64,000 bases of DNA, from positions 64,866 through 128,865 of IMG/VR virus record IMGVR_UViG_3300027792_000307, one strand, 5' to 3'. How positions within the stretch are numbered: position 1 is the stretch's first letter; every line of letters begins with the position of its first letter. This stretch comes from a virus. Taxonomy: Duplodnaviria; Heunggongvirae; Uroviricota; Caudoviricetes. The notes beneath the pieces are model-generated. The model searched no databases, had not been told where the DNA came from, and saw nothing but the letters and a program-made list of their open reading frames with translations. The position numbers were made by a program, and so were the translations under genes. Positions 1,721 through 29,511 of the stretch are shown here, one piece after another.

Positions 1721-2655
1721 AGAAAATCGTAATAACTGGTGGAAATGGGTTCATAGGAAGTTCATTACTTCAATATCTATATAAGAAAGAATACGATTTA
1801 ATATACGATTTTGTTCTTATAGATAGGAAATTAAATCCCTATGGGGACAAGTATAGTAAGAATACAAAACTTTATCAATTGGATATAAATACCTGGTTGC
1901 CGGATTTAGATGATGTAGAGATTGTAATCCACCTGGCAGCTCTTCCAAGTGTAAGAGAAAGCGACAAGAGATTTAAGTCTGTTATGGATGATAATATCTA
2001 CGCATCCCATAATATAATCAAAAAATGTATCGAGCAATGGAAACCAAAGAAATTACTATTGGCGTCTTCCTCTTCAGTTTATGATGGTAGAGTGAATAAA
2101 CCAATGAATGAGGAATCTCCTGTAAGGTTATTATCTCCTTACGCTCATACGAAGTTAGTTATGGAACAAATGATACAGATGTATCAAAATAATGGTCTAC
2201 TAAAAGATATTCAAGTTGGATTAATGAGGATTTTCACAGTCTATGGACCAAGGCAACGAGATGAATTAGCAATCCAGGCAATTATAGATTGTTATCTACA
2301 GAACAAGGAATTTACTTTATATGGAGATGGAACTCAAAGAAGGGATTTTACCTATATAACAGATACTTGTTCCGCTATAGAATGTCTTATGAATAGTTCA
2401 AGATTAAATGGAATCTATAATATTGGGACTGGGGAGAATCATTCAATCAACGAGATTATATTCTTTATAGGACAGACATTAAAGAAAAATTTAACTATAA
2501 AGAATGAGGAACCAACTATCTACGATACTATGTATACTCTTGCAAATAACAAGAAATTACGTAAGTTAACTGGATGGCGTAAAGAGATGGATTTCTATCA
2601 AGGAGTTTTAAAACAAATAGAATGGCAAAAAAAGCAACTTACATCGCAGAATTAA
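1717..2655 (+). CDS. NAD-dependent nucleotide-sugar epimerase/dehydratase (extended SDR, UDP-glucuronate 4-epimerase-like)
   Basis: ITGGNGFIG, ASSSSVY, YAHTK (YxxxK), RIFTVYGP, GDGTQRRDFTYI. Confidence 0.9.
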   Translation: MKKIVITGGNGFIGSSLLQYLYKKEYDLIYDFVLIDRKLNPYGDKYSKNTKLYQLDINTWLPDLDDVEIVIHLAALPSVRESDKRFKSVMDDNIYASHNIIKKCIEQWKPKKLLLASSSSVYDGRVNKPMNEESPVRLLSPYAHTKLVMEQMIQMYQNNGLLKDIQVGLMRIFTVYGPRQRDELAIQAIIDCYLQNKEFTLYGDGTQRRDFTYITDTCSAIECLMNSSRLNGIYNIGTGENHSINEIIFFIGQTLKKNLTIKNEEPTIYDTMYTLANNKKLRKLTGWRKEMDFYQGVLKQIEWQKKQLTSQN

Positions 2656-3164
2656 AAAAAGCAATTAATCAAATAGATTTAAAAGTTTTAGAATCTATAT
2701 CAGATTATCTAATATTTTCTGTAGATAATAATATTTTTTTATGTGGGAATGGAGGCTCTTCAAGTACATGCCAACATATAGCAAATGATTTAGTAAAGAT
2801 GTGCAACTTAAACGCAATTTGTCTAACAGATAATACTGCTACATTGACAGCTTGTGCAAACGACATTTCTTATGAGGCGATTTTTGATAGACAACTTAAA
2901 GTTATGTCAGGTAAAGGAGATATTCTTATTGTTATATCTGGGAGTGGTAAGTCAAAGAATATCTTAAGTGCCATAGACTATGCTAATAAAAATAGTATGA
3001 ATATAATTGCTATAATTGGTATGGATGGAGGAGAAGTTATTAACAAAAGAGTTGATAAGTTAATTCATATTAAAACAGATATGCAACATTTCGAGGATTG
3101 TAGTTTAGTTGTTGGTCACATTATTACTATGAATATATATGGAAACCAAAAGAAAATCATTTAA
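2622..3164 (+). CDS. gmhA: Phosphoheptose isomerase (SIS domain)
   Basis: IFLCGNGGSSSTCQHIANDL, LTACANDISYEAIFDRQL, ISGSGKSKNI. Confidence 0.88.
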   Translation: MAKKATYIAELKKAINQIDLKVLESISDYLIFSVDNNIFLCGNGGSSSTCQHIANDLVKMCNLNAICLTDNTATLTACANDISYEAIFDRQLKVMSGKGDILIVISGSGKSKNILSAIDYANKNSMNIIAIIGMDGGEVINKRVDKLIHIKTDMQHFEDCSLVVGHIITMNIYGNQKKII

Positions 3165-5532: not shown

Positions 5533-6431
5533 ATATAGGAATATTTAATACCAGAGGTATAAACCAAACAGAGCATTTTATTCCTTTGGAACTAGAAGAA
5601 TTAAAGAGATTAGGGCACACTGTAGAAATATACTGGACAAAAGGTAGACATCCAACTAAAAAGGAAGCTGAATGTATGGATTTTGCTATATTTCATTTTG
5701 TTCCAACAGCTATGTTCTTTAGTAGGATAGGAGTTCCATTCTGTGTATTACCAACAGCAAATGATATATTTCCAAATGAGGGGGAAAACTTAATTTATAT
5801 ACAAAATCACCCAAACTGTAAATTTGTAGGGTATCAATCTTTCTACCACAAAAGGAAGTATGATGAGTGGGGGATTACAAAACCAATTGCTCATATTCCA
5901 CATTGTGTTAGAACTAAATTATTTAAGAGACAGACTCCATACAATCCTTCCGGGAAAATTATAGCTGGAGGTAGATTAATCCCTAAAAAGGGATTAGATA
6001 GACTCAAAGGAGTGGAAAATTTAACCATCTTTGGAGATGGCCCACTAATAGATAAACTTGGTCAGGAATTGGGGGCATCAACTAAATTTACTGGATATAT
6101 GGGAGCACAAAGTTTAAAAGAACTCTTTGAAGAGGCGAGTATCTATCTATTCCCAGCTATAGTTATGCCAGATGGGGATTCAGAAGGTATTTCAAATACA
6201 ATTAAGGAATCTATGCTTATGGAACTACAGGTTATCTGCACACCAATAGCAGGAAACACCGAATTTGAGAATATTGCCTTTTTATCTGATTGGTCTAAAG
6301 AATCCGTAGAAAGAGCTATAAATTCTGTCTCAAAAGAACCTAATACCAAGGGAAGGGCTGAAATACTAAAAACTTTCTCACCAGAGATATGTGTAAATAA
6401 ATTATTGAAAGCGATAGATGATTATAACTAG
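5529..6431 (+). CDS. GT4 (GT-B) glycosyltransferase, WcaL-like
   Basis: GRLIPKKG, DGDSEGISNTIKESM (Ex7E). Confidence 0.85.
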   Translation: MNIGIFNTRGINQTEHFIPLELEELKRLGHTVEIYWTKGRHPTKKEAECMDFAIFHFVPTAMFFSRIGVPFCVLPTANDIFPNEGENLIYIQNHPNCKFVGYQSFYHKRKYDEWGITKPIAHIPHCVRTKLFKRQTPYNPSGKIIAGGRLIPKKGLDRLKGVENLTIFGDGPLIDKLGQELGASTKFTGYMGAQSLKELFEEASIYLFPAIVMPDGDSEGISNTIKESMLMELQVICTPIAGNTEFENIAFLSDWSKESVERAINSVSKEPNTKGRAEILKTFSPEICVNKLLKAIDDYN

Positions 6432-7371
6432 AACTCCATTTAGAATATCTTTGGCAGGAGGAATGTCAGATATTCCATCTTATTATGAAACGGATTATGG
6501 GTGTGTTGTAAGTGCAACCATAGATAAATATATTTATATAACTGTAAATAAACATTTTATGCCTTATTATAGGATAAAGTATTCAAAGACAGAAAATGTT
6601 GATAAAGTGGAAGAAATAGAACACGCATTAGTTAGAGAGTGTCTTAAATTTTTACATATAAATGATTATTTAGAAATAACTGCAATTAACGATATACCTT
6701 CAAGAACTGGACTAGGGTCTTCTAGTGCATTTACGGTTGGATTATTGCACGCACTTCATATTTATAAAGGAGATAAATTCGATAAAAAACAATTAGCTGA
6801 AGAAGCTTGCAATATAGAGATAAATATACTAAAAAATCCTATAGGTAAACAAGATCAATACGCATCAGCTTATGGGGGGATAAATTATATTAAATTTACA
6901 AAAGATTGTGTAGATGTAAGTCCATTAAATTTATCAAAAGATGTTATAAAAGATTTAAATTTATTTTATATAGGTAGAAGAGAACAAAATCCAGGAATTC
7001 ATGAAAAAATATCTATGAGTATGGAAGATAATAGAAAATATATAGATAAAATAAGGGATGTGGCGGAAACATTAAGAGAAGATATAAATAATAATATAAT
7101 ACATGATACTCTTGGGATATGGTTGAATGCTGGGTGGAATTGGAAACAAAAAGTTAATGATAATATAACATCTGAAGAAATAAAATATTTATATAAAATG
7201 ATACTAGATAGTGGAGCTGAAGGAGCAAAATTACTAGGAGAAGGTGGCAATGGATTTTTTTTGATATATTTAAAAAACTCTACGATAGAGAAATTGAATG
7301 AGTTTGTAAGTGTAAGACATGTTCCATTCAATATAGACTTCGAGGGATCTAAAGTAATTTATGAAAAATAA
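6418..7371 (+). CDS. hddA: GHMP-family D-glycero-alpha-D-manno-heptose-7-phosphate kinase
   Basis: MIITRTPFRISLAGG, PSRTGLGSSSAF, GKQDQYASAYGG, GAKLLGEGGNGF. Confidence 0.85.
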   Translation: MIITRTPFRISLAGGMSDIPSYYETDYGCVVSATIDKYIYITVNKHFMPYYRIKYSKTENVDKVEEIEHALVRECLKFLHINDYLEITAINDIPSRTGLGSSSAFTVGLLHALHIYKGDKFDKKQLAEEACNIEINILKNPIGKQDQYASAYGGINYIKFTKDCVDVSPLNLSKDVIKDLNLFYIGRREQNPGIHEKISMSMEDNRKYIDKIRDVAETLREDINNNIIHDTLGIWLNAGWNWKQKVNDNITSEEIKYLYKMILDSGAEGAKLLGEGGNGFFLIYLKNSTIEKLNEFVSVRHVPFNIDFEGSKVIYEK

Positions 7372-7813: not shown

Positions 7814-8754
7814 CAATAAAAGGAATAATATTACACGGAATGGAATCTAATCAACCAAAAACTGTTTTTACACAAATAGAATCACTTAATTTAGAATTAT
7901 CTGGAAAAACAGATTTAGTTAATTATAATAACTATACATCTGAAGAATTATATAAATATCTCAAAACATTAGATATAGATATATTAATAGCTTATTATAA
8001 CGAATATCTTGAATATATGGTTCCATTATCAGAATTAGGAATACCTATAATAATGGCTTCTGAAGATACACAAAAAAGATTCGCAGATGGATTTTATAGA
8101 AAATTAGTGGAAATTCATAAACCTGACTGTATAATGATACAAAATAAGTGTTCTATACCAGCATTTAATAAGTATTTAGGAAAAGACTTTAAATATTTAT
8201 ATTTTCCATGGGGTGCAGACACGTCATTATTTAAGGATTATGGAGAAAAAAAGATATATGATATATCTATAAGTGGTAAATTTGCATCAAATATGTTTAG
8301 GAAGGAATTAGATGGTTTATTGAGTAGTAAAACAGATATTATATATAAAAGAATAAGAAATAACAATCCAGGAGTTTTATTACCATATGATGAATTTGCT
8401 AAAGAATTAAATAGAAGTAAAATATCTTTGGGTGGTTGCCTACAAAAAAACCCTTATTATGAAGGTATATATATAGGAAATTCATTTAAGAAAAATTTCG
8501 AGGTTCCTGCATCAAAAGCCTGTTTGATAAATACAAACTGGGGGGATAAAGAACTTATGGGATTCAAGGATGGAGAAAACTTTATAGAATTTAATAATAG
8601 AAGTTCGTTTTTAAAGAAACTTGAGTATTATTTGGAAGATGAAAACGAACTTAAAAGAGTTACAGATAATGGATATAAACATGTTATGGAAAACCATTCT
8701 ATAGATAAGGTTGTATCTAGATGTATAAACGATATAAGAAGTTTATATGAATAA
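7810..8754 (+). CDS. GT-B glycosyltransferase (CgeB/Glyco_trans_1_2-like)
   Basis: FPWGAD, YDISISG, LNRSKISL, KNFEVPASKACLI, FKDGENFIEF. Confidence 0.75.
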   Translation: MTIKGIILHGMESNQPKTVFTQIESLNLELSGKTDLVNYNNYTSEELYKYLKTLDIDILIAYYNEYLEYMVPLSELGIPIIMASEDTQKRFADGFYRKLVEIHKPDCIMIQNKCSIPAFNKYLGKDFKYLYFPWGADTSLFKDYGEKKIYDISISGKFASNMFRKELDGLLSSKTDIIYKRIRNNNPGVLLPYDEFAKELNRSKISLGGCLQKNPYYEGIYIGNSFKKNFEVPASKACLINTNWGDKELMGFKDGENFIEFNNRSSFLKKLEYYLEDENELKRVTDNGYKHVMENHSIDKVVSRCINDIRSLYE

Positions 8755-9658
8755 TTACATAACAGAGATGAAAGCTAAATATTCTTTATCAGATATTAAA
8801 AAATATAATAGAAAACACGATTTAAATGTTTTAGTTGTAGGAGAAACCATAATTGATGAATATTATTTCGGCCAATCCCTAGGTAAATCAGGTAAAGCTC
8901 CAATAGTGGCCTTTGAGAACAAAACGTTAGATGTGTATGAAGGTGGTGCCAAAGCCATAAGAAATCATTTAGAAGATTTCTGTAATGTAGATATTTTAAC
9001 AGGGGATTATGACGTAATAAAACGGAGATATATAGAGAATAAACAGAAATTATTTGAAACCTATACATATATTAAAAGTGACAGACCCAAAAAGAAAATT
9101 AATATAAAAGACTATGATTTAGTTATAGTAGCAGATTTTGGTAATAAATTCATAGATACTAATTTAAAAAACAAAATAGAAGCAGAAGCTAATTATATAT
9201 GTTTAAATACACAATTAAATGCAGGAAATATGGGTTTGAATACGATAAATAAATATAGTAAATGGAATTATATATGTATAGACCAGACAGAATTGAGATT
9301 GGCAACAAGTAATCAATATAATACCGTGGAAGAAATAATAATAGAAAAATTTAATGGAATTGAAAAAAGTGGAAGACTTGTATCTATAACTGAAAATAAA
9401 AAAGGTAGTGTATTATTTGATGGAATTAATATGATAAAATCCCCATCATTAATCAAAAAATCAAAAATTGTAGATACAACAGGAGCTGGTGATTCCTACT
9501 TTTCTATAACTTCTATTTTATCATATCTCAAGGCACCAAAAGAAATTATTGGTTTTTACGGAAACATTGCAGGAGCCATAGCATGTACTTATATGGGTAA
9601 TAAATACACTATTACAATAGAAAGAATGTTAAAATATATGGAAGATTTATTAAAATGA
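8747..9658 (+). CDS. PfkB-family sugar kinase, HldE/RfaE kinase-domain-like (stand-alone)
   Basis: VLVVGETIIDEY, VIKRRY, VIVADFG, VDTTGAGDS anion hole. Confidence 0.8.
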   Translation: MNNYITEMKAKYSLSDIKKYNRKHDLNVLVVGETIIDEYYFGQSLGKSGKAPIVAFENKTLDVYEGGAKAIRNHLEDFCNVDILTGDYDVIKRRYIENKQKLFETYTYIKSDRPKKKINIKDYDLVIVADFGNKFIDTNLKNKIEAEANYICLNTQLNAGNMGLNTINKYSKWNYICIDQTELRLATSNQYNTVEEIIIEKFNGIEKSGRLVSITENKKGSVLFDGINMIKSPSLIKKSKIVDTTGAGDSYFSITSILSYLKAPKEIIGFYGNIAGAIACTYMGNKYTITIERMLKYMEDLLK

Positions 9659-10500
9659 CTTCAGTAATATTTACAGGTCTAGAAAATAGACAAAAACCAT
9701 TTGGATTTGGGGATTTTGCTAATTATATATTACTATGTAATTGTAGAGCTAAGGAACTGAATTGTAATAAAATAGGAGCTGTTTTTCCTATTTTAGCTGG
9801 GGAATTTAAAAATGAAAGTAATAGAGAAGTTCAGAAGATAGATAATATTAATATAGAATTTATTAGAATAAAAGATTTAGAAAAAAGAAGAACAGAGTTT
9901 GATATAGAGGATGTAGTTTATTACCCCAAAAAACAAATTATTTCTATATATAATTATTTAAATTATTATTATCTTACATATAAAAAATACGAGGTATTTG
10001 ATAATATAAAAGATAATATAGGAAAAAATTATATTCTATTCCATTATAGATTTAATAATAATAATAAAAATAGAAATGCATCAATACAAGAACTTAATAT
10101 ATTACTTAATTATTGTAAAGAGCTACTCGGGGATAAATGTGAATATTGGAAAACCGGGGAGGTATGCACATTAGATAATAAATTTGATAATGTTATAGAT
10201 ATCTCATACGATAATATTAATTTAATTAATAATCTGGTAAGAAATAGCTCCTTCATAATAGCAAGTTCATCTGGTGTGTTTCCTTATGCACAATTATATA
10301 ATAATGCACCTTTTTTCGTCTTTAGTTGTGGGTACCCAGATCCATATCATCATTTCAACGATTGTTCAAAGATTCCTCTGGATTATGGGGAAAGGTCATT
10401 ACAGTTTATGGGAGAGAAATTTTATGGCAAGTTTATTAAAGGAGAGTTACCAAAACTCGAGGAAGTTAAAAATATGTTTATCAAAGAGGGATTATGTTAA
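9655..10500 (+). CDS. Hypothetical GT9-like glycosyltransferase, paralog 1 of 3
   Basis: FGDF...RAKEL, YILFHYR...RN, FIIASSSG motifs shared with 20652 and 26900. Confidence 0.5.
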   Translation: MTSVIFTGLENRQKPFGFGDFANYILLCNCRAKELNCNKIGAVFPILAGEFKNESNREVQKIDNINIEFIRIKDLEKRRTEFDIEDVVYYPKKQIISIYNYLNYYYLTYKKYEVFDNIKDNIGKNYILFHYRFNNNNKNRNASIQELNILLNYCKELLGDKCEYWKTGEVCTLDNKFDNVIDISYDNINLINNLVRNSSFIIASSSGVFPYAQLYNNAPFFVFSCGYPDPYHHFNDCSKIPLDYGERSLQFMGEKFYGKFIKGELPKLEEVKNMFIKEGLC

Positions 10501-11078
10501 CCAAGGAAGAATTAATAGAATTTGAAAAGGAAGTATCTATTTTATTTGAAAATAAGGAAATAATGGCTCCAATTCATCTATCTGGTGGAAATGAGGAAGA
10601 ACTAATAAATATTTTTAAAAGAATTAATAAAGAAGATTGGGTATTTTGTACCCATAGAAATCACTATCATGCACTATTAAAGGGATTCGATAAGAAACAA
10701 CTATTAGATATTATATTATTGGGAGAAAGTATGCATATATACAGTAATAAGTTAAACTTCTTCACATCTTCTATTGTTGGAGGAGTTTTACCTATAGCGT
10801 TGGGTGTTTCAATTTCTATAAAGAGAAAGAAGGAAAATAAGAAAGTCTATGTCTTTATAGGAGATATGGCTTCTGAAATGGGAATCTTTCATGAATGTAA
10901 AAAATATGCATGTAGGAATGACCTACCAATAGAATTTATAATAGAAGATAATGGATTAGCGGTTGATACCCCAACACAGGAAACTTGGGGGACTTGTAAA
11001 GATAACAATAAAGTTTATAGATATTCATATAAAAGAGTTTGGCCTCATGCCGGATGTGGGAAGTGGATAAGGTTTTAA
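10494..11078 (+). CDS. TPP-dependent enzyme, short E1-alpha-like subunit
   Basis: PIHLSGGNE, THRNHYHALLKG, SSIVGG, GDMASEMG...IEDNG TPP motif. Confidence 0.85.
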   Translation: MLTKEELIEFEKEVSILFENKEIMAPIHLSGGNEEELINIFKRINKEDWVFCTHRNHYHALLKGFDKKQLLDIILLGESMHIYSNKLNFFTSSIVGGVLPIALGVSISIKRKKENKKVYVFIGDMASEMGIFHECKKYACRNDLPIEFIIEDNGLAVDTPTQETWGTCKDNNKVYRYSYKRVWPHAGCGKWIRF

Positions 11079-11079
11079 T

Positions 11080-11616
11080 ATGAAATACAAAGAAGTTGTG
11101 ATTAAGTCTATGGAATATTTAGCAGATCAAGAAAACACTATATTTCTAGGTCAAAATATTAGATATGGAAGTCAAATGTACGAGACACTTTTAACAATTC
11201 CAGATTATAAAAAGATAGAAATGCCAATAGCAGAAGATATGCAAATGGGTATAGCTATAGGTCTCGCCTTAAATGGATATTTACCTATTTGTATATATGA
11301 AAGGATGGATTTCCTCATTTTAGCTATAAATCAACTAGTGAATCATCTTGACAAAGCCAGGAAGATGTCTAGAGGGGAATTCGACCCTAAAGTTATTATT
11401 AGAACTATAATAGGGTCTAAAGAGCCACTTTATCCTGGTTTGCAACATTCACAAGATCACACAGATATGCTTAAGGCCTGTTTAACGAATATTGATATTA
11501 TAAAATTAGAAAAGACATCTAATATATTTAATGAATATCAAAAAGCTGTAAAATCGAATAAATCTACTATAATAATAGAAACTAAAGATTTATATAATTT
11601 AGAGGTAATATTTTGA
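11080..11616 (+). CDS. TPP-dependent enzyme, short E1-beta-like subunit (pyrimidine-binding domain only)
   Basis: IFLGQ, EMPIAEDMQMGIAIGLAL, LAINQLVN, GLQHSQD. Confidence 0.85.
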   Translation: MKYKEVVIKSMEYLADQENTIFLGQNIRYGSQMYETLLTIPDYKKIEMPIAEDMQMGIAIGLALNGYLPICIYERMDFLILAINQLVNHLDKARKMSRGEFDPKVIIRTIIGSKEPLYPGLQHSQDHTDMLKACLTNIDIIKLEKTSNIFNEYQKAVKSNKSTIIIETKDLYNLEVIF

Positions 11617-12629
11617 TACAGGATAAATATGGTATTGATAACCACAAATTAATTTATCATCCATGTAAAGTAAGCGATTGGCTAAATGGAGAAGATATAT
11701 ATCCAATTTTAATAAATGTGTGTCCAATAGGTAAATGTAACCATAGATGTATATTCTGTTCTTATAACTATACTGGGTATAATAGGGATACATTAGATAC
11801 TAAGAAATTTAAAAATACTTTAGACGAACTTTCAAATTTAGGAATTAAAGCAGTAAACTATAATAATGAAGGAGAACCTTTATTACACCCAAATATAGCA
11901 GAAATTGTGAAATATACAAGAAAAGTAGGAATAGATGTATCTATAGAAACAAATGGTGTATTATTAAATAAAAATTTACAGGAAACCCTTACAAATAATC
12001 TATCTTATATAAAAATAAGTGTAGATGCTGGAACTCCAGAAACACATTATAAATTACATAGAGGTAAAAAGGAGGACTTTAATATAGTTATACAAAATAT
12101 AAAGGACGTTTGCAAAATAAAAAGGGACTGCGTTGTAGGGATACAGATGCTATTATTAAAAGAAAATGAAGACGAAATACAAACTTTATTAAATGTATTA
12201 GATGGTGTTGATTATGATTGGTTTGCTATAAAACCTTTTTCAGTTAATCCTTATCAAGATTATCATCTTGTGAAACCAGGGGATTTAGAAAAGGCAAAAA
12301 AAATACCAGGAGTTATAGTTAGAGAATACGGGTTTGAAAGAGAAAAACTTCTATCAACTAAAGGAAAAGATTACGATATATGTTATGGTATAAATTTCTT
12401 TTCTAATATAGATTGTAATGGAGATGTTACAATTTGTAATGCTCTTGTAGGGTCAAAGAAATTTATTATTGGAAATATATATGAAAATTCTTTTGAATCT
12501 ATTTGGAAAAATAGGAGAATAAAAGAACAAAAAACAGATGTTTGCAGTCACTATTCTTGTAGACTAGATAAACAGAATGTATATTTATGGAAATTAAAAA
12601 ATCCACATAAACACGTGAACTTCATATGA
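11613..12629 (+). CDS. Radical SAM/SPASM protein (family paralog 1); TTG start
   Basis: CNHRCIFC, EGEPLLHP, C-terminal C...IDCNGDVTIC...IGNI...CSHYSC. GAGGT RBS at 11602-11606. Confidence 0.9.
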   Translation: MIQDKYGIDNHKLIYHPCKVSDWLNGEDIYPILINVCPIGKCNHRCIFCSYNYTGYNRDTLDTKKFKNTLDELSNLGIKAVNYNNEGEPLLHPNIAEIVKYTRKVGIDVSIETNGVLLNKNLQETLTNNLSYIKISVDAGTPETHYKLHRGKKEDFNIVIQNIKDVCKIKRDCVVGIQMLLLKENEDEIQTLLNVLDGVDYDWFAIKPFSVNPYQDYHLVKPGDLEKAKKIPGVIVREYGFEREKLLSTKGKDYDICYGINFFSNIDCNGDVTICNALVGSKKFIIGNIYENSFESIWKNRRIKEQKTDVCSHYSCRLDKQNVYLWKLKNPHKHVNFI

Positions 12630-13360
12630 ATTCTAAAGATATGAGAATTAAGATATTAAATACTATAATGGAGGAAGGAGAGGGACATTTGGGGGGATCG
12701 CTATCTTGTATAGATATCCTTATAGTATTATATGATAATATATTAACCAAAGAAGATGTATTTATATTAAGTAAGGGACACGCATATACAGCTTTGTATT
12801 GTGTACTAAAGGAGAAGGGATTTAATCCAAAAAAGGGAGCTCATCCAGATATAGATACAGAAAATGGTATCTATTGTACGACTGGAAGTTTGGGTCACGG
12901 TTTACCAGTTGGAATAGGTGTGGCTCTTTCTAAAAAATTAAAGGGGGAACCTGGTAAAGTATATGTATTAATTAGCGATGGGGAATTGGAAGAAGGTACC
13001 ACATGGGAGTCTTTATTAATCTCTTCTAAATATAAACTAGATAATTTGGTAATAGTAATAGACTATAATAAATTCCAAGCTATGGAATGCATAGAAGAGA
13101 TAACAAGTATAGCTAATATAAAAGATTTATATAAAAAGTTAGATTCCTTTATAAATAATGTATTCTGTGTGGATGGACACAACATTAAAGATTTAATAGA
13201 TATATTCAATATAAATAACAAGACTAATAAACCTTTAGTAATAATATCAAATACTATTAAATGCAATGGTATTTCCTTTATGATAGATAACCCAGAGTGG
13301 CATGGAAAGGTCCCAAATAAAGAAGAATATGAAAAAGCTTTAAAGGAGATATCTATATGA
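12626..13360 (+). CDS. Transketolase N-terminal (TPP-binding) subunit
   Basis: GHLGGSLS, LSKGHA, TGSLGHGL, SDGELEEGTTWE...DYN, WHG. Confidence 0.9.
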   Translation: MNSKDMRIKILNTIMEEGEGHLGGSLSCIDILIVLYDNILTKEDVFILSKGHAYTALYCVLKEKGFNPKKGAHPDIDTENGIYCTTGSLGHGLPVGIGVALSKKLKGEPGKVYVLISDGELEEGTTWESLLISSKYKLDNLVIVIDYNKFQAMECIEEITSIANIKDLYKKLDSFINNVFCVDGHNIKDLIDIFNINNKTNKPLVIISNTIKCNGISFMIDNPEWHGKVPNKEEYEKALKEISI

Positions 13361-13824
13361 GAAAATTCTTTGGAGATTGGTTAATAGAAAGAGTAAAGGA
13401 AGACCAAACTATATATCTTATAGTAGGAGACACCGGTTATAAGTCATTTGATAATTTTAAACGCTTATATCCAGATAGATATATTAATATAGGAATATGT
13501 GAACAATCTATGATTAGTATAGCAGCTGGTATGGCATTAAATGGATTAAAGCCTTATGTATATACAATAACACCATTTTTAATAGAAAGGGCTCTAGAAC
13601 AAATAAAAATAGATATAAATTTAAATAATGCCAACGTTAAATTAATTGGATTTGATGATTACCCAACACAAGGACCTACACATAAATGTGCAGATGATCA
13701 TATAGTAAAAATGTTTAGTAATATTAAGTGTTTTTATCCAATGGATATAAATCAATTAAAAAATTCACTAGATAAAACCTACAACAACAAAAAACCAACT
13801 TTTATAAATATGAGGAAAATATGA
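13357..13824 (+). CDS. Transketolase C-terminal subunit, pyrimidine-binding domain only
   Basis: PDRYINIGICEQSMISIAAGMA, ERALEQIK, GPTH. Confidence 0.88.
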   Translation: MRKFFGDWLIERVKEDQTIYLIVGDTGYKSFDNFKRLYPDRYINIGICEQSMISIAAGMALNGLKPYVYTITPFLIERALEQIKIDINLNNANVKLIGFDDYPTQGPTHKCADDHIVKMFSNIKCFYPMDINQLKNSLDKTYNNKKPTFINMRKI

Positions 13825-14894
13825 ACGATATATATAAGATGAGAGGAAATAAATTATTATGGCATTTAGATAGACTTAACGATTGGAATAAAGGAAAAAG
13901 AATTGTACCAATAGAAATTATGATTTCTTTAACAAATGGATGTAATTCTAGGTGTAAATTCTGCTATGGAAAATTTATGGGGCAAAAATCAGAATTCTTA
14001 AGACAGGATATGAATATAACTGATATATATAGACTAATTGATGACTGTAAGGAATTAGGAGTTAAAAGTATTGTCTTGATGGGGAATGGAGAGAACACCC
14101 TACACAAGAAATTCTACGAAATCGTAAAATACATAAAAGATTCTGGTCTTGATATAGGAATGGCTACAAATGGAATATTAATAAAAGATAAGAATATGAA
14201 AACCATTTTAGATTGTTTTACCTGGGTAAGAATAAGTGTTTGTGCATCAAATAGAGAATTATATAAGAAAATTCATGGAGTTGATAAATTTGATTTAGTT
14301 ATTGAAAATATCTCCAAGTTAATTAAATTGAAAAAAGATAAAAATTATAAAACTACCATTGGAATACAAATGGTAGTTATAAATGAAAATAAGGAAAATA
14401 TCTATAATACCGCTTCATTATCAAAGAAACTTGGTGTAGATTACTTTGTAGCTAAACCAAGTGCAGACACACCAAATAGGGATATGAAAGTTGATTATTC
14501 TATTTATAGAGGTATAGACGACCAAATTAAAATGAGTTATACACTACAAGATGAAACTTTTGATGTTGTAATAAAAGAAGAAAAATTTAAACTAGAAGGA
14601 AAACACGATTATAAATGCTGCTTAGCAACCCCTTTTTCCATTTCTATAGATACAAATGGGGACGTAGTACCATGTGGGCATCTACTTGGTTATAGAAAAG
14701 AAGAATTTGTTATGGGTAATATAAGAACAGAATCATTTAAAGATATTTTAAATAGTGACAAATATAAAAAAGTCCAAGAAAAAGTAAAAACATTAGATGT
14801 TAATAAAGAATGTGAAACTAATTGTAGACACTATTATATGAATGTATTTTTAAATGGATTGAAAGAGAAACCGAGGCACGAGAATTTCGTATGA
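13821..14894 (+). CDS. Radical SAM/SPASM protein (family paralog 2)
   Basis: CNSRCKFC, GNGENTLH, C...IDTNGDVVPC...MGNI...CETNC. Confidence 0.9.
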   Translation: MNDIYKMRGNKLLWHLDRLNDWNKGKRIVPIEIMISLTNGCNSRCKFCYGKFMGQKSEFLRQDMNITDIYRLIDDCKELGVKSIVLMGNGENTLHKKFYEIVKYIKDSGLDIGMATNGILIKDKNMKTILDCFTWVRISVCASNRELYKKIHGVDKFDLVIENISKLIKLKKDKNYKTTIGIQMVVINENKENIYNTASLSKKLGVDYFVAKPSADTPNRDMKVDYSIYRGIDDQIKMSYTLQDETFDVVIKEEKFKLEGKHDYKCCLATPFSISIDTNGDVVPCGHLLGYRKEEFVMGNIRTESFKDILNSDKYKKVQEKVKTLDVNKECETNCRHYYMNVFLNGLKEKPRHENFV

Positions 14895-15727
14895 TTGTAA
14901 TTATAGGTGGAACCGGGATGGTAGGTTCGGGTATAGTTAGATATATGATAGAAAAGTCTATAGATTATGTTTCATTTAATTCTAAAACTATAGATTCAAA
15001 TGACTATAAGATTCTATCTAATAAAATAAAGCAACTAAAACCAGAACTTATAATAAATTGTATAGGAGGAATGACATCTAGAGCCTGTGCAACAGATAAA
15101 GAGGGTGCACATAAATTGTTCTTATATCCATCGATAAATATAATAAATGTTTGTAGAGAATTGGATATACCCTTATTACATATTAGTAGTTCTAGTGTTT
15201 TTGATGGAAAAGAAGGTTTTTATACAGAATATGATATACCAAATCCTATTACATTATATGGTAGATTAAAGTATATAGAGGAGCTCCTTATATTAGTATC
15301 ACTAGAAAAATATTATATAGTTAGATTACCAATGACTTACGGGAAACACACAAGTAGCCGGAGTGATATAATAGAAAAACTATTAGATATATATAATAAT
15401 TCAGAACAAAAATTATCCCTAACAATAGATAGATTAGAAACTCCCTCATTTAATAAAGACATTGGAATGGGGATTATTGATGTTTATTTAGAAAATTACC
15501 CTTACGGTGTATATCATGTATCTAATAGTGGATATACCAATTATTTAAACTTCTTTAAAGAAATATGTAGAATTAAAGATATAAAATTTGATAGAAGCAA
15601 AATAAATCTTATAAATGAAACAGGAATGCAAAGTTGCTCTCCTTTGAAGTCTATTATTATATCTGAAAAGCTACCAGAAAAGAGGAATTGGTTAAAAGCT
15701 TTGGAGGAATATCTAAATGAAAATTAG
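14891..15727 (+). CDS. RmlD-like NDP-4-keto-sugar reductase (SDR)
   Basis: IGGTGMVG, HISSSSVFDG, EYDIPNPITLYGRLK. Confidence 0.8.
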   Translation: MIVIIGGTGMVGSGIVRYMIEKSIDYVSFNSKTIDSNDYKILSNKIKQLKPELIINCIGGMTSRACATDKEGAHKLFLYPSINIINVCRELDIPLLHISSSSVFDGKEGFYTEYDIPNPITLYGRLKYIEELLILVSLEKYYIVRLPMTYGKHTSSRSDIIEKLLDIYNNSEQKLSLTIDRLETPSFNKDIGMGIIDVYLENYPYGVYHVSNSGYTNYLNFFKEICRIKDIKFDRSKINLINETGMQSCSPLKSIIISEKLPEKRNWLKALEEYLNEN

Positions 15728-16844
15728 AAAGAATTGTTGTATATGTGGGAAAAAAATAAAAAGTTTAATAAAATTAGATAATTACCCTCTAACAGAAGGT
15801 TTTTCAGATAAATATATAAGCCCCAAAAAACTAAAATTTAATCAAGAATTCCAATATTGTGATAGTTGCGAACACGGACAATTATCAAATATTTTAGATA
15901 ACGATATTCTATATAATAAGTATACGTTTAGGACAGGGGATAGCTATTCAAAATACTCTAATAATAATCTAAAGGGATTTATTAAAAGTTATAATAGAAC
16001 TTGTATAACTAATATTATTGATATAGGTTGTAATGATGGATATTTATTGAAGAATTTAATAAAAGATTTTGATAGATTAGTTGGGATAGATCCTATGCAA
16101 GAAAATAAAAGTGAAGGCGGGATCGAGTATATTAAGGGATGTATAGAAGATACAGATATAGATTTAAGTGATTTTATAGTAACTAGTCATCATGTAATAG
16201 AACATCTAGAGGACCCCAAAAAATTTATAAAGAATATATTAGATAAAAGCAATGAAAATACTATTATTATTTTTTCCTTTCCATCTTTGGAGGGTTTAAT
16301 TAATAACATTAGATTTGATGCAATATTTCATCATCACCTAAATTATTTTTCCATATTTTCTATTTGCAAGTTATTAGATAGTTTAAATGTAGAAATTATA
16401 GATATAAAATATACATTTGATTATTATGGATGTATAACTGTTGTATTTAAGAAGAATAACAACAAGAATATCAAATTAACCAAACTTCTTTCTTCGGAAT
16501 ATATATTAAAACAGTATAGAGTATTTAAAAAATATATGGAATTAAACAAAGAATATATAAATACGCATGCAGATATATATTGTTACGGAGCAACATTTCA
16601 ATTCCCAATATTAAAATATTATATTTCTAATATTGAAAAATGTTTAGGTATAATAGACGATTCTAAAAATAAAGAAAATATGTATCCATTAGGTATAAAT
16701 CTTAAAATTGTAGGTATAGGAGACATTATAGGATTTGAAAGTGTAAATATATTGGTTACAGCAAACAATTTTTCTAAAAATATAGTTTTTAAAAGTTTTT
16801 TTAAGAGACCATTATCAATACATCTATTATTTGGTGATGTATAA
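15717..16844 (+). CDS. NDP-hexose C-methyltransferase-like protein
   Basis: N-terminal Zn motif CCICG...CDSCEHGQL, IDIGCNDG, HVIEHL, FHHHLNYFS. Confidence 0.8.
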   Translation: MKIRKNCCICGKKIKSLIKLDNYPLTEGFSDKYISPKKLKFNQEFQYCDSCEHGQLSNILDNDILYNKYTFRTGDSYSKYSNNNLKGFIKSYNRTCITNIIDIGCNDGYLLKNLIKDFDRLVGIDPMQENKSEGGIEYIKGCIEDTDIDLSDFIVTSHHVIEHLEDPKKFIKNILDKSNENTIIIFSFPSLEGLINNIRFDAIFHHHLNYFSIFSICKLLDSLNVEIIDIKYTFDYYGCITVVFKKNNNKNIKLTKLLSSEYILKQYRVFKKYMELNKEYINTHADIYCYGATFQFPILKYYISNIEKCLGIIDDSKNKENMYPLGINLKIVGIGDIIGFESVNILVTANNFSKNIVFKSFFKRPLSIHLLFGDV

Positions 16845-18590: not shown

Positions 18591-19685
18591 ATGGAAGATA
18601 AATTTTTATTAGATGGAACAAAAATGATGTGGCATCCAGATAGAATAGCTCAATGGTTAAAGGGAGAAACAATATGTCCTCTTTATATTGATGTAGGATT
18701 AGGAAAGGGATGTAATATTAAATGTCATTATTGTTTTGGAATGTTACAAGAAAATTTATACGCTCAAGGAAAAAATATACATTTCCCAAGAAAACAATTA
18801 TTAAATTATATGAAGGATGCCGGAAAATGTGGAGTAAGAGGTATGGGGATAATTGGCGAATCTGAACCCCTATTGAATCCTAATGTTTATGATGCAATCC
18901 AAGTTGGAGTAGATAATGGAATCGATATAGGTTTGGCAACAAACGGTGTTCTCTACGATACAGACAAAGATGGCATTAAAACATTAGAGAATCTCATATA
19001 TATTAGATTTAATATAAGTGCAGCTTCAGAAGAGTCTTATAGAGTTTTACACGGGAGTAAAGAATTCAATACTGTAATAGATAAAATAAAGTTTTGTGTA
19101 AAAACAAAAAGGGAGTGTGGATTACCGGTAACTATTGGACTACAAATGGTTCTTACACCGAAAGATGTAAAGGAAGTTGTACCTTTAGCAAAATTGGGTA
19201 AAGATTTAGGAGTGGACTATTTTCAAATTAAACAATGTGCAGATCTCCAAGATAGTAGTTTGGGAGTATATAAAGAATATGAAAAGGGAACTTACAGGGG
19301 TTACACAGAAATTTTGAAGGAAGCTGAAGCTGAAACTACAGATAAATACGCTGTTACACCAAAATGGTATGCAATATTAGATGGATATCAACAGGATTAT
19401 GACAATTGTCTTGGGGCTCCCTTCTTATTATACTCAGATGGACTAGGAAAATTATTCACATGCGGGATGTTTTTTGATAAAAAATGGTGGAAAGATTATC
19501 TTTTGGGTGATTTAACAAAACAATCTTTTAGTGAGATAATATATAGTAAGAGATATCAGGAAGTCTTAGATAGAGTTAGTAAAATAGATTGCCATAAGTT
19601 TTGTTATAATGGATGTAGAACTGATAGAATTAATGCATATGTCTGGAAATTAAAACACCCACCAGAACATATAAATATGGTGTAA
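18591..19685 (+). CDS. Radical SAM/SPASM protein (family paralog 3)
   Basis: CNIKCHYC, GESEPLLNP, C...GKLFTC...LGDL...CYNGC. Confidence 0.9.
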   Translation: MEDKFLLDGTKMMWHPDRIAQWLKGETICPLYIDVGLGKGCNIKCHYCFGMLQENLYAQGKNIHFPRKQLLNYMKDAGKCGVRGMGIIGESEPLLNPNVYDAIQVGVDNGIDIGLATNGVLYDTDKDGIKTLENLIYIRFNISAASEESYRVLHGSKEFNTVIDKIKFCVKTKRECGLPVTIGLQMVLTPKDVKEVVPLAKLGKDLGVDYFQIKQCADLQDSSLGVYKEYEKGTYRGYTEILKEAEAETTDKYAVTPKWYAILDGYQQDYDNCLGAPFLLYSDGLGKLFTCGMFFDKKWWKDYLLGDLTKQSFSEIIYSKRYQEVLDRVSKIDCHKFCYNGCRTDRINAYVWKLKHPPEHINMV

Positions 19686-28892: not shown

Positions 28893-29511
28893 TTCTGTTA
28901 CTTGGACTAATCTTTCCAAGCATTTCAATGAACTTGATAAAAGTATAGATGTAAATCCTGGAGACCATGTAATTGATTGTGGAGCACACTTCGGAGATAT
29001 AACACTTTACTTGATGCTTAGAGCAGGAGAATTAGGAAAAGTCTATGGCATAGAAGCAGATTCGTACAATTATTCTATTCTAAAAAATTGGGTTGATAAT
29101 TTGAACATAGGTAAATATATAACTCCAATAAACTTAGCTATATCAAATAAAAAGGGAACAATAAGATTATATAAATCTGATACACACACAACAAGACACT
29201 CTATTTTCAAAAATCTAATGGAAGATAGGAATAATTATGAGGAAGTAAAATCGGATACTTTAGATAATATAGTAGAAAGATATAGAATTAAAAAACTTGA
29301 TTTTATCTATATGAATATGGAGGGAGCAGAATATTTAGCGTTTGAAGGTATGACAAATATATTAGATAAATTTAAACCAAGATTCTGCATAGCTGAACAT
29401 AAAAATGAAATATTTAAAGAAAAAATACCAGAAATACTAAAAAATTATGGTTATAAAACAAAAATAATTAATGATAAGGTAAAGGATAGGATAGTAATTG
29501 CAGAAATATAA
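28867..29511 (+). CDS. FkbM-family methyltransferase
   Basis: VIDCGAHFG, GKVYGIEAD, TLD...LDFIYMNMEGAE. Confidence 0.85.
   Translation: MITREEVINSVTWTNLSKHFNELDKSIDVNPGDHVIDCGAHFGDITLYLMLRAGELGKVYGIEADSYNYSILKNWVDNLNIGKYITPINLAISNKKGTIRLYKSDTHTTRHSIFKNLMEDRNNYEEVKSDTLDNIVERYRIKKLDFIYMNMEGAEYLAFEGMTNILDKFKPRFCIAEHKNEIFKEKIPEILKNYGYKTKIINDKVKDRIVIAEI

What the first reader, a model, noticed from the sequence alone, without database searches (positions are those of the whole stretch)
10494..14894. Two minimal TPP-enzyme pairs, each immediately followed by a paralogous radical SAM
Seen: [E1-alpha 194 aa, E1-beta 178 aa, RS] then [TK-N 244 aa, TK-C 155 aa, RS]. The second subunit of each pair lacks the usual C-terminal domain, and no E2/lipoyl or E3 gene is present. 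Established: the TPP enzyme YerE adds a two-carbon branch to a CDP-4-keto-sugar (yersiniose), and split transketolases occur in unusual-sugar loci. Inference: two successive carboligation plus radical-tailoring modules make branched or higher-carbon sugars rather than central metabolites.
Basis: partly seen in the sequence, partly recalled or inferred. Interest (0 to 1): 0.78.

Follow-up and report, generated by a model that had tools for sequence, protein, structure and literature searches.

The report
Mini thiamine enzymes coupled to radical-SAMs
A large virus carries two stripped-down thiamine-dependent carbon-carbon-bond enzymes and matching radical enzymes inside a sugar-building gene island; natural gene fusions elsewhere show that such enzyme pairs work together, pointing to an unstudied way of making unusual seven-carbon-derived sugars.

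Summary
All six genes exist as described, in a 32-kb glycan island of a 155-kb viral record. The short lengths are family traits, not truncations. No E2 or lipoyl gene occurs in the record.

The reading is partly supported, but the parse changes.
- **Conserved unit:** RS1–TK-N–TK-C–RS2 (then RmlD-like reductase and C-methyltransferase), usually beside HldE/GmhA/GmhB-type heptose genes.
- **E1 pair:** a separate, very widespread cassette. Its usual partners are SDRs, an HddA-type kinase, a nucleotidyltransferase, GmhA, DegT and RmlC. A radical SAM follows it in only about 7 of 61 loci.

New evidence is natural fusions: TK-C::rSAM (two contigs), YerE-type ThDP enzyme::rSAM, E1β::B12-rSAM, and GmhA-, GmhB- and nucleotidyltransferase::RS1-type rSAM. 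ThDP carboligation and radical chemistry are therefore coupled within a heptose-type pathway.

The short TK keeps all catalytic and phosphate-binding residues but never the acceptor-recognising Asp469 or His461, so it is not an ordinary transketolase. The exact chemistry is inferred, not shown.

This scan had already noted the same short pairs on other DNA. I found no paper describing them.

The parts
10494..11078 (+). Minimal E1-alpha-like ThDP (PP-domain) subunit, 194 aa
   Evidence: Pfam E1_dh 2.2e-18, covering profile positions 7-171 of 300. The family has an invariant GDM...EDNG ThDP-Mg motif and HRxHYHALLKG. The model (pLDDT 85.5) matches only E1-alpha chains in its top 50 hits, TMq about 0.7 and TMt about 0.4.
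11080..11616 (+). Minimal E1-beta-like Pyr-domain subunit, 178 aa, no C-terminal domain
   Evidence: Pfam Transket_pyr only. Cofactor-activating Glu52 and Gln122-His123 of the QHSQ motif are invariant in 20 homologues. Adjacent to E1-alpha in 60 of 61 genome loci. Fused to E1-alpha in L023 and L067. Complex prediction passes.
11613..12629 (+). RS1: radical SAM with SPASM/twitch-type domain, the 'upstream-of-TK-N' orthologue group
   Evidence: Pfam Radical_SAM+SPASM and a CX3CX2C motif. In the tree it groups with rSAMs that precede TK-N and with the GmhB-, SIS- and nucleotidyltransferase-fused forms.
12626..13360 (+). TK-N: transketolase-type PP-domain subunit, 244 aa
   Evidence: E 3e-47 to the solved split transketolase N subunit 6yak. 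The equivalents of His26, His66, His100, His261 and the Mg ligands are conserved in at least 97% of 102 family pairs.
13357..13824 (+). TK-C: Pyr-domain-only subunit, 155 aa, remodelled acceptor site
   Evidence: Pfam Transket_pyr only. Family invariants are Arg2, Glu49, Asp101-Tyr102 and His109. The Asp469-equivalent position is never Asp, and the His461-equivalent position is Ala or Asp. Fused to an RS1/RS2-family rSAM in L179 and L205.
13821..14894 (+). RS2: radical SAM with SPASM/twitch-type domain, the 'downstream-of-TK-C' orthologue group
   Evidence: Pfam. Clade of 5 rows, all downstream of TK-C, SH-aLRT 99. Invariant C41/C45/C48 plus C267, C285, (C331) and C335. Model pLDDT 95.8.
14891..15727 (+). 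RmlD-like NDP-keto-sugar reductase, conserved next gene of the cassette
   Evidence: Pfam RmlD_sub_bind 5.8e-38. It follows RS2 directly in L003, L006 and L009, and one gene further on in L004.
15717..16844 (+). Methyltransf_13/23 methyltransferase (Zn-finger plus SAM domain, the NDP-sugar C-methyltransferase type)
   Evidence: Pfam. Conserved after the RmlD-like gene in L004, L006 and L253.
8747..9658 (+). PfkB kinase, best match RfaE/HldE domain I (heptose-7-P kinase)
   Evidence: Pfam PfkB. NCBIfam rfaE_dom_I 3.9e-13, below the cut-off. PfkB/HldE-like kinases accompany short-TK loci in 18 of 46, against GHMP in 1 of 46.
2622..3164 (+). SIS isomerase, GmhA-like (context: entry to the heptose pathway)
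   Evidence: NCBIfam phosphoheptose isomerase 4.5e-31, below the cut-off.
6418..7371 (+). GHMP kinase, HddA-like (context: the kinase type that travels with the E1 pair)
   Evidence: NCBIfam HddA 2.2e-29, below the cut-off. GHMP kinase is present in 36 of 61 E1 loci.
18591..19685 (+). RS3: third paralogue of the same rSAM family
   Evidence: Pfam. It clusters with the rSAMs that follow E1-beta in L009 and L101.
29498..30781 (+). B12-binding radical SAM, the rSAM class most often linked to the E1 pair elsewhere
   Evidence: Pfam B12-binding+Radical_SAM. B12-rSAM lies within 10 kb of the E1 pair in 20 of 61 loci and is fused to E1-beta in L012.

Best explanation
The stretch holds two independent minimal ThDP carboligases (PP domain plus Pyr domain only) and two twitch/SPASM-type radical SAM enzymes. 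They tailor a heptose-type activated sugar in a virus-borne glycan island.

**Shown**
- Both pairs are intact and catalytically equipped.
- Both are members of large families of the same short size.
- The conserved unit is RS1 - TK-N - TK-C - RS2 - RmlD-like reductase - C-methyltransferase, next to HldE/GmhA/GmhB-type genes.
- The E1 pair is a separate cassette that travels with HddA/HddC/GmhA-type genes, SDRs, DegT and RmlC.
- ThDP enzymes of three classes, and heptose-pathway enzymes, occur fused to radical SAMs elsewhere.

**Inferred**
- The E1 pair decarboxylates pyruvate and puts the resulting C2 (acetyl) unit on a keto group of an NDP-heptose-type sugar, as AviB1/B2 and KbDH do.
- An RS1-type radical SAM abstracts a sugar hydrogen and creates the carbonyl electrophile (BtrN/DesII/anSME-like oxidation) on a phosphorylated or nucleotide-bound heptose.
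- The TK pair transfers a C2 ketol unit from a ketose phosphate or hydroxypyruvate onto that carbonyl.
- RS2, the reductase and the methyltransferase finish the product, a branched or chain-extended (C9) sugar used by the island's glycosyltransferases.
For: **Sequence and competence**
- ORFs and domains.
- Short forms are family traits.
- Catalytic residues are kept. E1-alpha has GDM-X26-DN. E1-beta has Glu52 and Gln122-His123 of the QHSQ motif. In 102 pairs, all TK-N His residues and Mg ligands are at least 97% conserved, and TK-C has Glu49 in 102/102, His109 in 101/102 and Arg2 in 99/102.
- No E2 or lipoyl domain in the record.

**E1 heterodimer**
- Adjacent in 60 of 61 loci.
- Natural single-chain fusions in L023 and L067.
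- Complex prediction score 0.89 against a best control of 0.00. The mark was reached by 58 of 80 solved complexes and 2 of 110 mismatched pairs. Runs agree in at least 98% of contacts, and partner pLDDT is at least 92. Like complexes are solved, so the pass may reflect likeness.

**E1 context**
- SDR 52/61, GHMP 36/61, nucleotidyltransferase 25/61, SIS 17/61.
- Neighbours include DegT, RmlC and, in SAR11 loci, a YerE-like enzyme.

**TK/RS cassette**
- Conserved in Sulfurimonas next to a Maf flagellin-glycosylation gene, and in metagenomic and viral contigs.
- It includes a complete 133.8-kb viral genome with terminal repeats.
- An rSAM lies within 3 genes of the short TK pair in 23 of 46 loci.

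**Fusions**
- TK-C::rSAM in two non-identical contigs.
- GmhB-like::RS1-type.
- SIS::RS1-type.
- Nucleotidyltransferase::RS1-type (three proteins).
- YerE/ALS-type ThDP::RS1-type.
- E1-beta::B12-rSAM.

**Tree**
- RS1 groups with the upstream-of-TK-N forms and RS2 with the downstream-of-TK-C forms.

**Precedent**
- PMC12247030 and PMC4425429.
Against: - No biochemical datum exists for any member, and every step of chemistry is inferred.
- The rSAM fold search is generic: peptide maturases score as well as DesII and BlsE.
- Half of the short-TK loci, and most viral ones, have no rSAM nearby, so the TK pair does not need one.
- The TK-C family keeps both phosphate-binding positive residues (Arg2, and Lys/Arg at the Arg520 position). 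It often sits with GmhA, HldE and GmhB. That fits a feeder role on sugar phosphates as well as it fits tailoring.
- The E1-beta::B12-rSAM fusion was seen once only.
- The tree is a quick search with SH-aLRT support only.
- All heptose-pathway assignments in the window are best hits below the curated cut-offs.
Confidence: 0.55

Rival explanations
1. Feeder role. The short TK pair works at the start of the pathway on ordinary sugar phosphates. It makes sedoheptulose-7-P, or a longer ketose phosphate such as octulose-8-P from a hexose-6-P. The GmhA-like isomerase, the kinase, the phosphatase and the nucleotidyltransferase then convert that product into an NDP-sugar. This is the same logic as LmbR-LmbN-LmbP-LmbK-LmbO for GDP-octose. 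The radical SAMs tailor later intermediates.
For: - Short-TK loci carry HldE/PfkB-type kinase (18/46), SIS (15/46) and a GmhB-like phosphatase.
- The gene order in L176 is HldE-GmhA-GmhB-RS1-TKN-TKC-RS2.
- The TK-N donor site is canonical, and Arg2 plus Lys/Arg153 (phosphate binders) are kept.
- A changed acceptor pocket could suit a one-carbon-longer aldose phosphate.
- Transketolases can make octulose-8-P, and the lincosamide pathway shows the ligase-isomerase-kinase-phosphatase-transferase logic (PMC5854111, PMC12945683).
- Archaeal or DPANN hosts may lack a pentose-phosphate route to S7P (own knowledge).
Against: - The TK-C::rSAM fusion and the YerE-type::rSAM fusion argue that the ThDP step and the radical step are consecutive, rather than at opposite ends of the pathway.
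- Most viral short-TK loci lack SIS (3/63) and nucleotidyltransferase.
- SAR11, which I recall has a housekeeping transketolase, still carries island TKs.
- His461 and Asp469 are replaced, which canonical S7P formation would not favour.
Confidence: 0.27
2. The E1-like pair is a simple 2-oxo-acid decarboxylase or an acyloin-cleaving enzyme. It might shorten a 2-keto-3-deoxy sugar acid made by the island's NeuB, or supply acetaldehyde or acetyl units, rather than branching a keto-sugar.
For: - E1 chemistry starts with 2-oxo-acid decarboxylation.
- The island has NeuB and a CMP-transferase.
- The E1-type enzyme Ao:DCPIP OR cleaves acetoin (PMC12247030).
Against: - NeuB is present in only 2 of 61 E1 loci, whereas SDR, GHMP, nucleotidyltransferase, SIS, DegT and RmlC dominate.
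- The E1-beta His of the QHSQ motif and the Glu are conserved as in transfer-competent E1s.
Confidence: 0.08
3. The radical SAMs are peptide (RiPP) or protein maturases and lie next to the ThDP genes only by chance.
For: - The best NCBIfam and Foldseek matches include peptide maturases: SuiB, CteB, SkfB and the tungsten-cofactor maturase.
Against: - All such matches are far below family cut-offs.
- No precursor-peptide gene was seen.
- Every fusion partner found is a sugar-pathway or ThDP enzyme.
- Synteny with sugar genes is conserved across phyla.
Confidence: 0.03
4. The short genes are decayed fragments or assembly artefacts of normal E1 and transketolase genes.
For: They are about half the size of canonical subunits.
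Against: - Thousands of homologues share the same length with conserved termini and catalytic residues.
- The exact RS2 and E1-alpha proteins were seen on 6 contigs.
- Models are confident.
Confidence: 0.01

Closest known systems
alphaKADH2-type E1 alpha/beta sugar-branching enzymes (AviB1/AviB2 of avilamycin, Pau11/Pau12 of paulomycin, KbDH-alpha/beta of kibdelomycin; PMC12247030, PMC4425429)
   Same: - Two-subunit E1-type ThDP enzyme with no E2 or E3.
- Embedded among NDP-keto-sugar enzymes.
- ThDP-Mg motif, cofactor Glu and E1-beta His are kept.
- The predicted alpha-beta interface runs through the cofactor region.
   Different: - About half the size: 194 + 178 aa, against 325 + 345 aa for Pau11/Pau12.
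- The second half of E1-alpha and the whole C-terminal domain of E1-beta are missing.
- GDM instead of GDG.
- Found in surface-glycan islands of DPANN archaea, Patescibacteria, SAR11 and Chloroflexota and in hundreds of viral contigs, not in actinomycete antibiotic clusters.
- The context is heptose-type rather than 6-deoxyhexose.
Split-gene transketolases: housekeeping (Carboxydothermus 6yak/6yaj) and those proposed for the hydroxyacetyl branch in miharamycin and amipurimycin (PMC12247030)
   Same: - TK-N is a close relative (E 3e-47) with all donor-side His residues.
- TK-C has the cofactor Glu, the His473 equivalent and the two phosphate-binding positive residues.
- A dehydrogenase-type enzyme (here a radical SAM) precedes it, as proposed for miharamycin.
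   Different: - No Transketolase_C domain.
- The His461 and Asp469 equivalents are replaced, with a 3-residue deletion.
- It is physically fused to a radical SAM in some organisms.
- It is not from Streptomyces.
Sugar- and nucleoside-acting twitch/SPASM radical SAMs: BtrN, DesII, BlsE (PDB 4m7t, 8hzv, 7vob)
   Same: - CX3CX2C core plus a C-terminal Cys-rich domain with four conserved Cys, enough for one auxiliary cluster.
- Sugar-pathway context.
- Among the best sequence and fold matches.
   Different: - Only 14-17% identity.
- Scores are far below the family cut-offs.
- A conserved N-terminal signature (K11, H15, D17-R18, W22, P30) is absent from those enzymes.
- Substrate and reaction are unknown.
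Lincosamide GDP-octose pathway (LmbR transaldolase, LmbN isomerase, LmbP kinase, LmbK phosphatase, LmbO nucleotidyltransferase)
   Same: A C-C-bond-forming enzyme is encoded together with SIS isomerase, anomeric kinase, phosphatase and nucleotidyltransferase to give an NDP higher-carbon sugar.
   Different: The ligase here is ThDP-dependent (two of them) rather than a transaldolase, and radical SAMs are integrated.

Membership tests
E1 alpha/beta ThDP enzymes (alphaKADH2 superfamily) | E1-alpha-type PP domain with a ThDP-Mg binding motif (GDG-X~26-NN) | tested here: met
   Pfam E1_dh above cut-off. Variant motif GDM-X26-DN is invariant in 27 homologues. The fold matches only E1-alpha chains in the top 50.
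E1 alpha/beta ThDP enzymes (alphaKADH2 superfamily) | E1-beta-type Pyr domain with the cofactor-activating Glu and the catalytic His | tested here: met
   Glu52 and Gln122-His123 are invariant. It aligns to E1-beta chains.
E1 alpha/beta ThDP enzymes (alphaKADH2 superfamily) | Full-length architecture (alpha about 320-370 aa; beta about 325-345 aa with a C-terminal domain) | tested here: not met
   194 and 178 aa. The profile is covered only at positions 7-171 of 300. No Transketolase_C domain.
E1 alpha/beta ThDP enzymes (alphaKADH2 superfamily) | Alpha and beta form one enzyme | tested here: met
   Adjacent in 60 of 61 loci. Natural fusions in L023 and L067. Complex prediction 0.89 against a best control of 0.00, where 58 of 80 solved and 2 of 110 mismatched pairs reach the mark; the pass may reflect likeness to solved E1s.
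E1 alpha/beta ThDP enzymes (alphaKADH2 superfamily) | Pyruvate-derived C2 transfer to a keto-sugar | not testable with these tools
   Needs an enzyme assay. Only the gene context supports it.
2-oxo-acid dehydrogenase complex E1 | Partner E2 (lipoyl acyltransferase) present | tested here: not met
   No PF00198 or PF00364 match in the 155-kb record. None was seen in the neighbourhoods read.
Transketolase (EC 2.2.1.1) | PP domain with donor-site His residues and Mg ligands | tested here: met
   The His26, His66, His100 and His261 equivalents and the Asp/Asn ligands are conserved in at least 97% of 102 pairs. E 3e-47 to 6yak.
Transketolase (EC 2.2.1.1) | Pyr domain with the cofactor Glu and the His473 equivalent | tested here: met
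   Glu49 in 102/102 and His109 in 101/102.
Transketolase (EC 2.2.1.1) | Acceptor and phosphate residues His461 and Asp469 | tested here: not met
   The His461 position is Ala or Asp. The Asp469 position is His, Leu or Gln and never Asp. There is a 3-residue deletion.
Transketolase (EC 2.2.1.1) | C-terminal Transketolase_C domain | tested here: not met
   The protein ends right after the Pyr domain, as do the family's 1739 homologues within the 85-272 aa window that was searched.
Radical SAM, SPASM/twitch subgroup | CX3CX2C cluster motif plus a C-terminal Cys-rich auxiliary-cluster domain | tested here: met
   Pfam Radical_SAM and SPASM above cut-offs. Invariant C41/C45/C48 and four conserved C-terminal Cys, enough for one auxiliary cluster rather than the 7-Cys SPASM pattern.
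BtrN / DesII / BlsE sugar radical SAM enzymes | Scores at family level against the curated models | tested here: not met
   BlsE model 49.9 bits against a 400 cut-off for RS1. DesII model 33 bits against 450 for RS3. Only the core region aligns.

The most novel reading that the evidence does not exclude
A radical-SAM-plus-ThDP route to higher-carbon sugars. An RS1-type enzyme oxidises a heptose phosphate or NDP-heptose (for example C7-OH to an aldehyde, or C6-OH to a ketone). The minimal transketolase, whose acceptor pocket is rebuilt for this substrate, then adds a two-carbon ketol unit. The result is a nine-carbon sugar made without the PEP-aldol (NeuB-type) chemistry used for all known nonuloses. 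The minimal E1 pair adds a further acetyl branch. Viruses of archaea and bacteria carry this kit to build a glycan of their own.
Probability: 0.2. Interest if true: 0.9.

Novelty: new variant of a known kind. Interest (0 to 1): 0.72.

Why it matters
ThDP enzymes that branch sugars are known from a handful of actinomycete antibiotic clusters and a few LPS sugars, all as full-size proteins. This work shows that half-size versions of two ThDP classes are very common:
- at least 107 species-level genomes;
- more than 450 viral contigs;
- thousands of metagenomic proteins.

They occur in surface-glycan islands of DPANN archaea, Patescibacteria, SAR11 and Campylobacterota, and in large viruses. They are also genetically welded to one family of radical SAM enzymes.

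That gives enzymologists three things:
- a concrete, testable unit (RS1, TK-N/TK-C, RS2) for new C-C bond chemistry on heptoses;
- minimal ThDP scaffolds for biocatalysis;
- a lead to unknown sugars on virions, flagella and cell envelopes of uncultured microbes.

Tried and rejected
- **Viral-contig scan with RS2 alone:** no relatives. Alignment-based scans were needed.
- **Rfam on the window:** nothing.
- **Literature searches:** combining transketolase, radical SAM and flagellin glycosylation, heptose or glycan gave 0 papers. The search on radical SAM and nucleotide-sugar terms gave nothing relevant.
- **Upstream 281-aa protein (9655-10500):** no Pfam or NCBIfam family and no pairwise similarity to two GT9 proteins from related loci. 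I therefore did not assign it.
- **A window structural protein (58681-60177) searched in five other viral records carrying the modules:** no match. Those viruses are not close relatives, or the protein evolves fast.
- **Fold search of RS2:** does not discriminate sugar enzymes from peptide maturases.
- **The 'careful' tree search:** did not finish in the time allowed, so the quick tree is used.
- **First mapping of TK His461 and Arg520 onto TK-C positions 101 and 153:** rechecked against the 6yaj alignment and corrected. His461 aligns to position 100. Arg520 aligns to position 153 or 154, which are mostly Lys.
- **DNA hypermodification as the island's purpose:** considered, but not pursued. 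The island holds glycosyltransferases and NDP-sugar genes, and nothing seen here links it to nucleotide metabolism.

Full report
**Setting.** The window is bases 64866-128865 of a 155-kb IMG/VR virus record, about 87% complete. Bases 1-31,700 form one + strand run of about 40 tightly packed genes with 26-31% G+C. The other half holds large structural genes on the minus strand at 31-36% G+C, some with tail-protein hits. Pfam shows the run is a glycan-synthesis island. It encodes:
- a nucleotidyltransferase, SIS isomerase, GHMP and PfkB kinases and a phosphatase;
- several SDRs, NeuB and a CMP-transferase;
- many methyltransferases and a sulfotransferase;
- glycosyltransferases;
- five radical SAM enzymes.

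The best NCBIfam matches of the activation genes are all heptose-pathway enzymes: GmhA, HddA, RfaE kinase domain and heptose 6-epimerase. All score below the curated cut-offs, so they are divergent.

**Observation.** RS1 and RS2 are paralogues over their full length, at 30% identity. The second subunit of each pair is a Pyr domain only. The E1-alpha-like protein itself covers only the first half of the E1_dh profile. The record has no E2 core and no lipoyl domain.

**The short sizes are family traits.**
- *E1-alpha form:* 2591 detectable homologues. The best 120 are mostly 188-206 aa (one is 170) at 54-72% identity, and all end at the same conserved Phe.
- *Pyr-only TK-C:* 1739 homologues, and all but one of the best 120 are 153-168 aa.
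- *E1-beta forms:* 172-190 aa.
- *Distribution:* the E1 pair occurs in at least 107 species-representative genomes (Woese-, Pace- and Nanoarchaeota, Patescibacteria, SAR11, Chloroflexota, Desulfobacterota, Omnitrophota and others) and in more than 458 viral contigs. The short TK occurs in more than 455 metagenome stretches and 117 viral contigs.

**Catalytic equipment.**
- *E1-alpha* keeps a ThDP-Mg motif, invariant GDM...EDNG.
- *E1-beta* keeps the cofactor Glu and the Gln-His of the E1-beta QHSQ motif.
- *E1-alpha model:* matches only E1-alpha chains, covering about 40% of them.
- *E1 complex prediction:* score 0.89, best of 3 controls 0.00. The mark was reached by 58 of 80 solved complexes and 2 of 110 mismatched pairs. 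Runs agree in at least 98% of contacts and the partner's pLDDT is at least 92. Solved E1 complexes exist, so the pass may reflect likeness.
- *Independent support:* two Woesearchaeota genomes encode alpha and beta as one roughly 400-aa chain.
- *TK-N:* close to a solved split transketolase (E 3e-47).
- *102 short TK pairs:* every donor-side His and Mg ligand is conserved in at least 97%. TK-C keeps the cofactor Glu, the His473 equivalent, Arg2 (Arg358 position) and mostly Lys/Arg at the Arg520 position. The His461 position is Ala or Asp. The Asp469 position is His, Leu or Gln and never Asp, and it sits next to a 3-residue deletion.

The short TK therefore looks active and still suited to a phosphorylated substrate, but its acceptor pocket differs from that of ordinary transketolase.

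**Gene neighbourhoods, E1 pair.** In 61 non-redundant genome loci, alpha and beta are adjacent in 60.
- *Gene after beta:* an SDR in 20 or 21 loci, an unlabelled gene in about 25, a B12-radical SAM in 5 and a SPASM radical SAM in 1 or 2. Where I tested an unlabelled gene, it was often a DegT aminotransferase.
- *Within 10 kb:* SDR 52, GHMP kinase 36, nucleotidyltransferase 25, B12-rSAM 20, SIS 17, a TK pair 11, SPASM-rSAM 9 and PfkB only 2.
- *Other neighbours:* RmlC-type epimerases and, in SAR11, a YerE/ALS-type ThDP enzyme.

So the E1 pair is its own cassette, tied to an HddA/HddC/GmhA-type (GDP-heptose-like) route and to NDP-keto-sugar enzymes.

**Gene neighbourhoods, TK pair and radical SAMs.** RS2 homologues at 44-51% identity lie in the block PfkB/HldE - RS1 - TK-N - TK-C - RS2 - RmlD-like - Methyltransf_13/23. 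This holds in metagenomic contigs and in Sulfurimonas. There the block sits beside a Maf flagellin-glycosylation gene, and TK-C is full length. One carrier is a complete 133.8-kb viral genome with terminal repeats.

In 46 non-redundant metagenome loci of the short TK:
- a radical SAM is adjacent on at least one side in 16, on both sides in 8, and within three genes in 23;
- a PfkB/HldE-type kinase occurs in 18, against GHMP in 1;
- SIS occurs in 15;
- an MT11-type methyltransferase is the commonest downstream gene, in 19.

More distant viral loci mostly read Zn-ADH - x - TK-N - TK-C - methyltransferase - PfkB - SDR, with no radical SAM.

The E1 pair's position relative to this block varies. 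It lies before RS1 here, after RS2 in L253 and further downstream in L009. A syntenic Actinomycetota MAG has the E1 pair and the radical SAMs but no TK pair.

**Fusions.** Two non-identical contigs encode a 512-aa protein made of the Pyr-only TK-C (1-158), Radical_SAM (198-358) and SPASM (425-490), preceded by TK-N. The same radical SAM family is found fused to:
- a GmhB-like HAD phosphatase (L186, L196);
- a GmhA-like SIS domain (P0391);
- an HldE-domain-II-type nucleotidyltransferase (P0365, P0371, P0436);
- an MT11-type methyltransferase (P0362);
- a complete YerE/ALS-type ThDP enzyme (P0364).

One archaeal MAG fuses E1-beta to a B12-binding radical SAM. These partners are the same gene types that flank the family in the cassettes. 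They tie the radical SAMs both to ThDP carboligases of unrelated classes and to the heptose pathway.

A quick maximum-likelihood tree gives three placements.
- *RS1:* falls among the forms that precede TK-N, together with the GmhB, SIS and one nucleotidyltransferase fusion.
- *RS2:* falls in a clade of five, all of them downstream of TK-C (SH-aLRT 99).
- *RS3:* falls near the radical SAMs that follow E1-beta in L009 and L101.

So in this window RS1 belongs to the TK unit, not to the E1 pair.

**What the radical SAMs are.** They have the CX3CX2C triad plus four conserved C-terminal cysteines, enough for one auxiliary cluster. They also carry a conserved N-terminal signature. By sequence, RS1's best solved relatives are BlsE, viperins, DesII and BtrN. 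RS2's are MoaA and SkfB, all over the core only. The confident RS2 model (pLDDT 95.8) matches SPASM/twitch enzymes generally. No curated family is reached.

**Mechanism.**
- *Shown:* intact minimal ThDP enzymes, the cassette structure, and genetic coupling of ThDP and radical enzymes within a heptose-type pathway.
- *Inferred for the E1 pair:* it transfers a pyruvate-derived C2 unit to a keto-sugar, as the alphaKADH2 enzymes do (PMC12247030, PMC4425429).
- *Inferred for the TK unit:* a radical SAM generates a carbonyl on a phosphorylated or nucleotide-bound heptose. The TK pair adds a C2 ketol unit. RS2, the reductase and the methyltransferase finish the sugar.
- *Main rival (about 0.27):* the TK pair feeds the pathway with sedoheptulose-7-P or a longer ketose phosphate, in the manner of LmbR in the GDP-octose pathway (PMC5854111, PMC12945683).

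The retained phosphate binders and the GmhA/HldE/GmhB neighbours keep the second alive.

**Comparison and novelty.** The review PMC12247030 lists E1-type and split-TK sugar-branching enzymes only as full-size proteins of actinomycete natural-product clusters, and the TK role there is still unproven. The enzymes here are half-size, phylogenetically widespread, virus-borne and coupled to radical SAMs. I found no paper on this. Earlier notes of this scan recorded the same short pairs in other genomes.

Noticed in passing
window 6418-7371 and 8747-9658: The island encodes both kinds of heptose-7-phosphate kinase: a GHMP/HddA-like one and a PfkB/RfaE-domain-I-like one. Across other loci the E1 pair travels with the first kind (36/61, against 2/61) and the short TK pair with the second (18/46, against 1/46). 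This suggests two parallel activated-heptose branches.
   Followed up: partly
window 7361-7813: A dual-specificity (Cys-based) phosphatase sits where heptose pathways normally have a HAD-type GmhB. Related loci do have GmhB-like HAD phosphatases (L176).
   Followed up: no
P0489 (631 aa): An RS1-family radical SAM interrupted by an intein with an HNH endonuclease domain (Pfam Intein_splicing and HNH_3).
   Followed up: no
L031, L035, L056, L079, L080 (SAR11 genomes): Single glycan loci carry three ThDP enzyme classes together: the short E1 pair, a YerE/ALS-type enzyme of about 560 aa, and a full-length but non-canonical split TK (GxGPGFS..DGPTHH instead of the canonical His461 region).
   Followed up: partly
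window 9655-10500: A 281-aa protein just upstream of E1-alpha has no Pfam or NCBIfam family and no pairwise similarity to GT9 proteins of related loci. Another note of this scan reads it as a divergent GT9-like transferase. My weak test neither confirms nor excludes that.
   Followed up: partly
window 1-32000 versus 32000-64000: The glycan island has 26-31% G+C with strongly positive GC skew. The convergent structural-gene half has 31-36% with negative skew. The two blocks meet near 32 kb.
   Followed up: no
L316 (IMGVR_UViG_3300030616_000506, 144.5 kb): Another large viral record has a similar island (SIS, FkbM, GT, nucleotidyltransferase, PfkB, TK-N, short TK-C, B12-rSAM, RmlD-like, several SPASM rSAMs) but no E1 pair. 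The islands are mosaics of the same cassettes.
   Followed up: partly
L003 (Sulfurimonas sp., CP147918.1:165434-182513): The TK/RS cassette lies directly downstream of an 1180-aa Maf-type flagellin glycosyltransferase gene, together with GT9 and sulfotransferase genes. This makes the strain a candidate cultivable system for finding the sugar.
   Followed up: no
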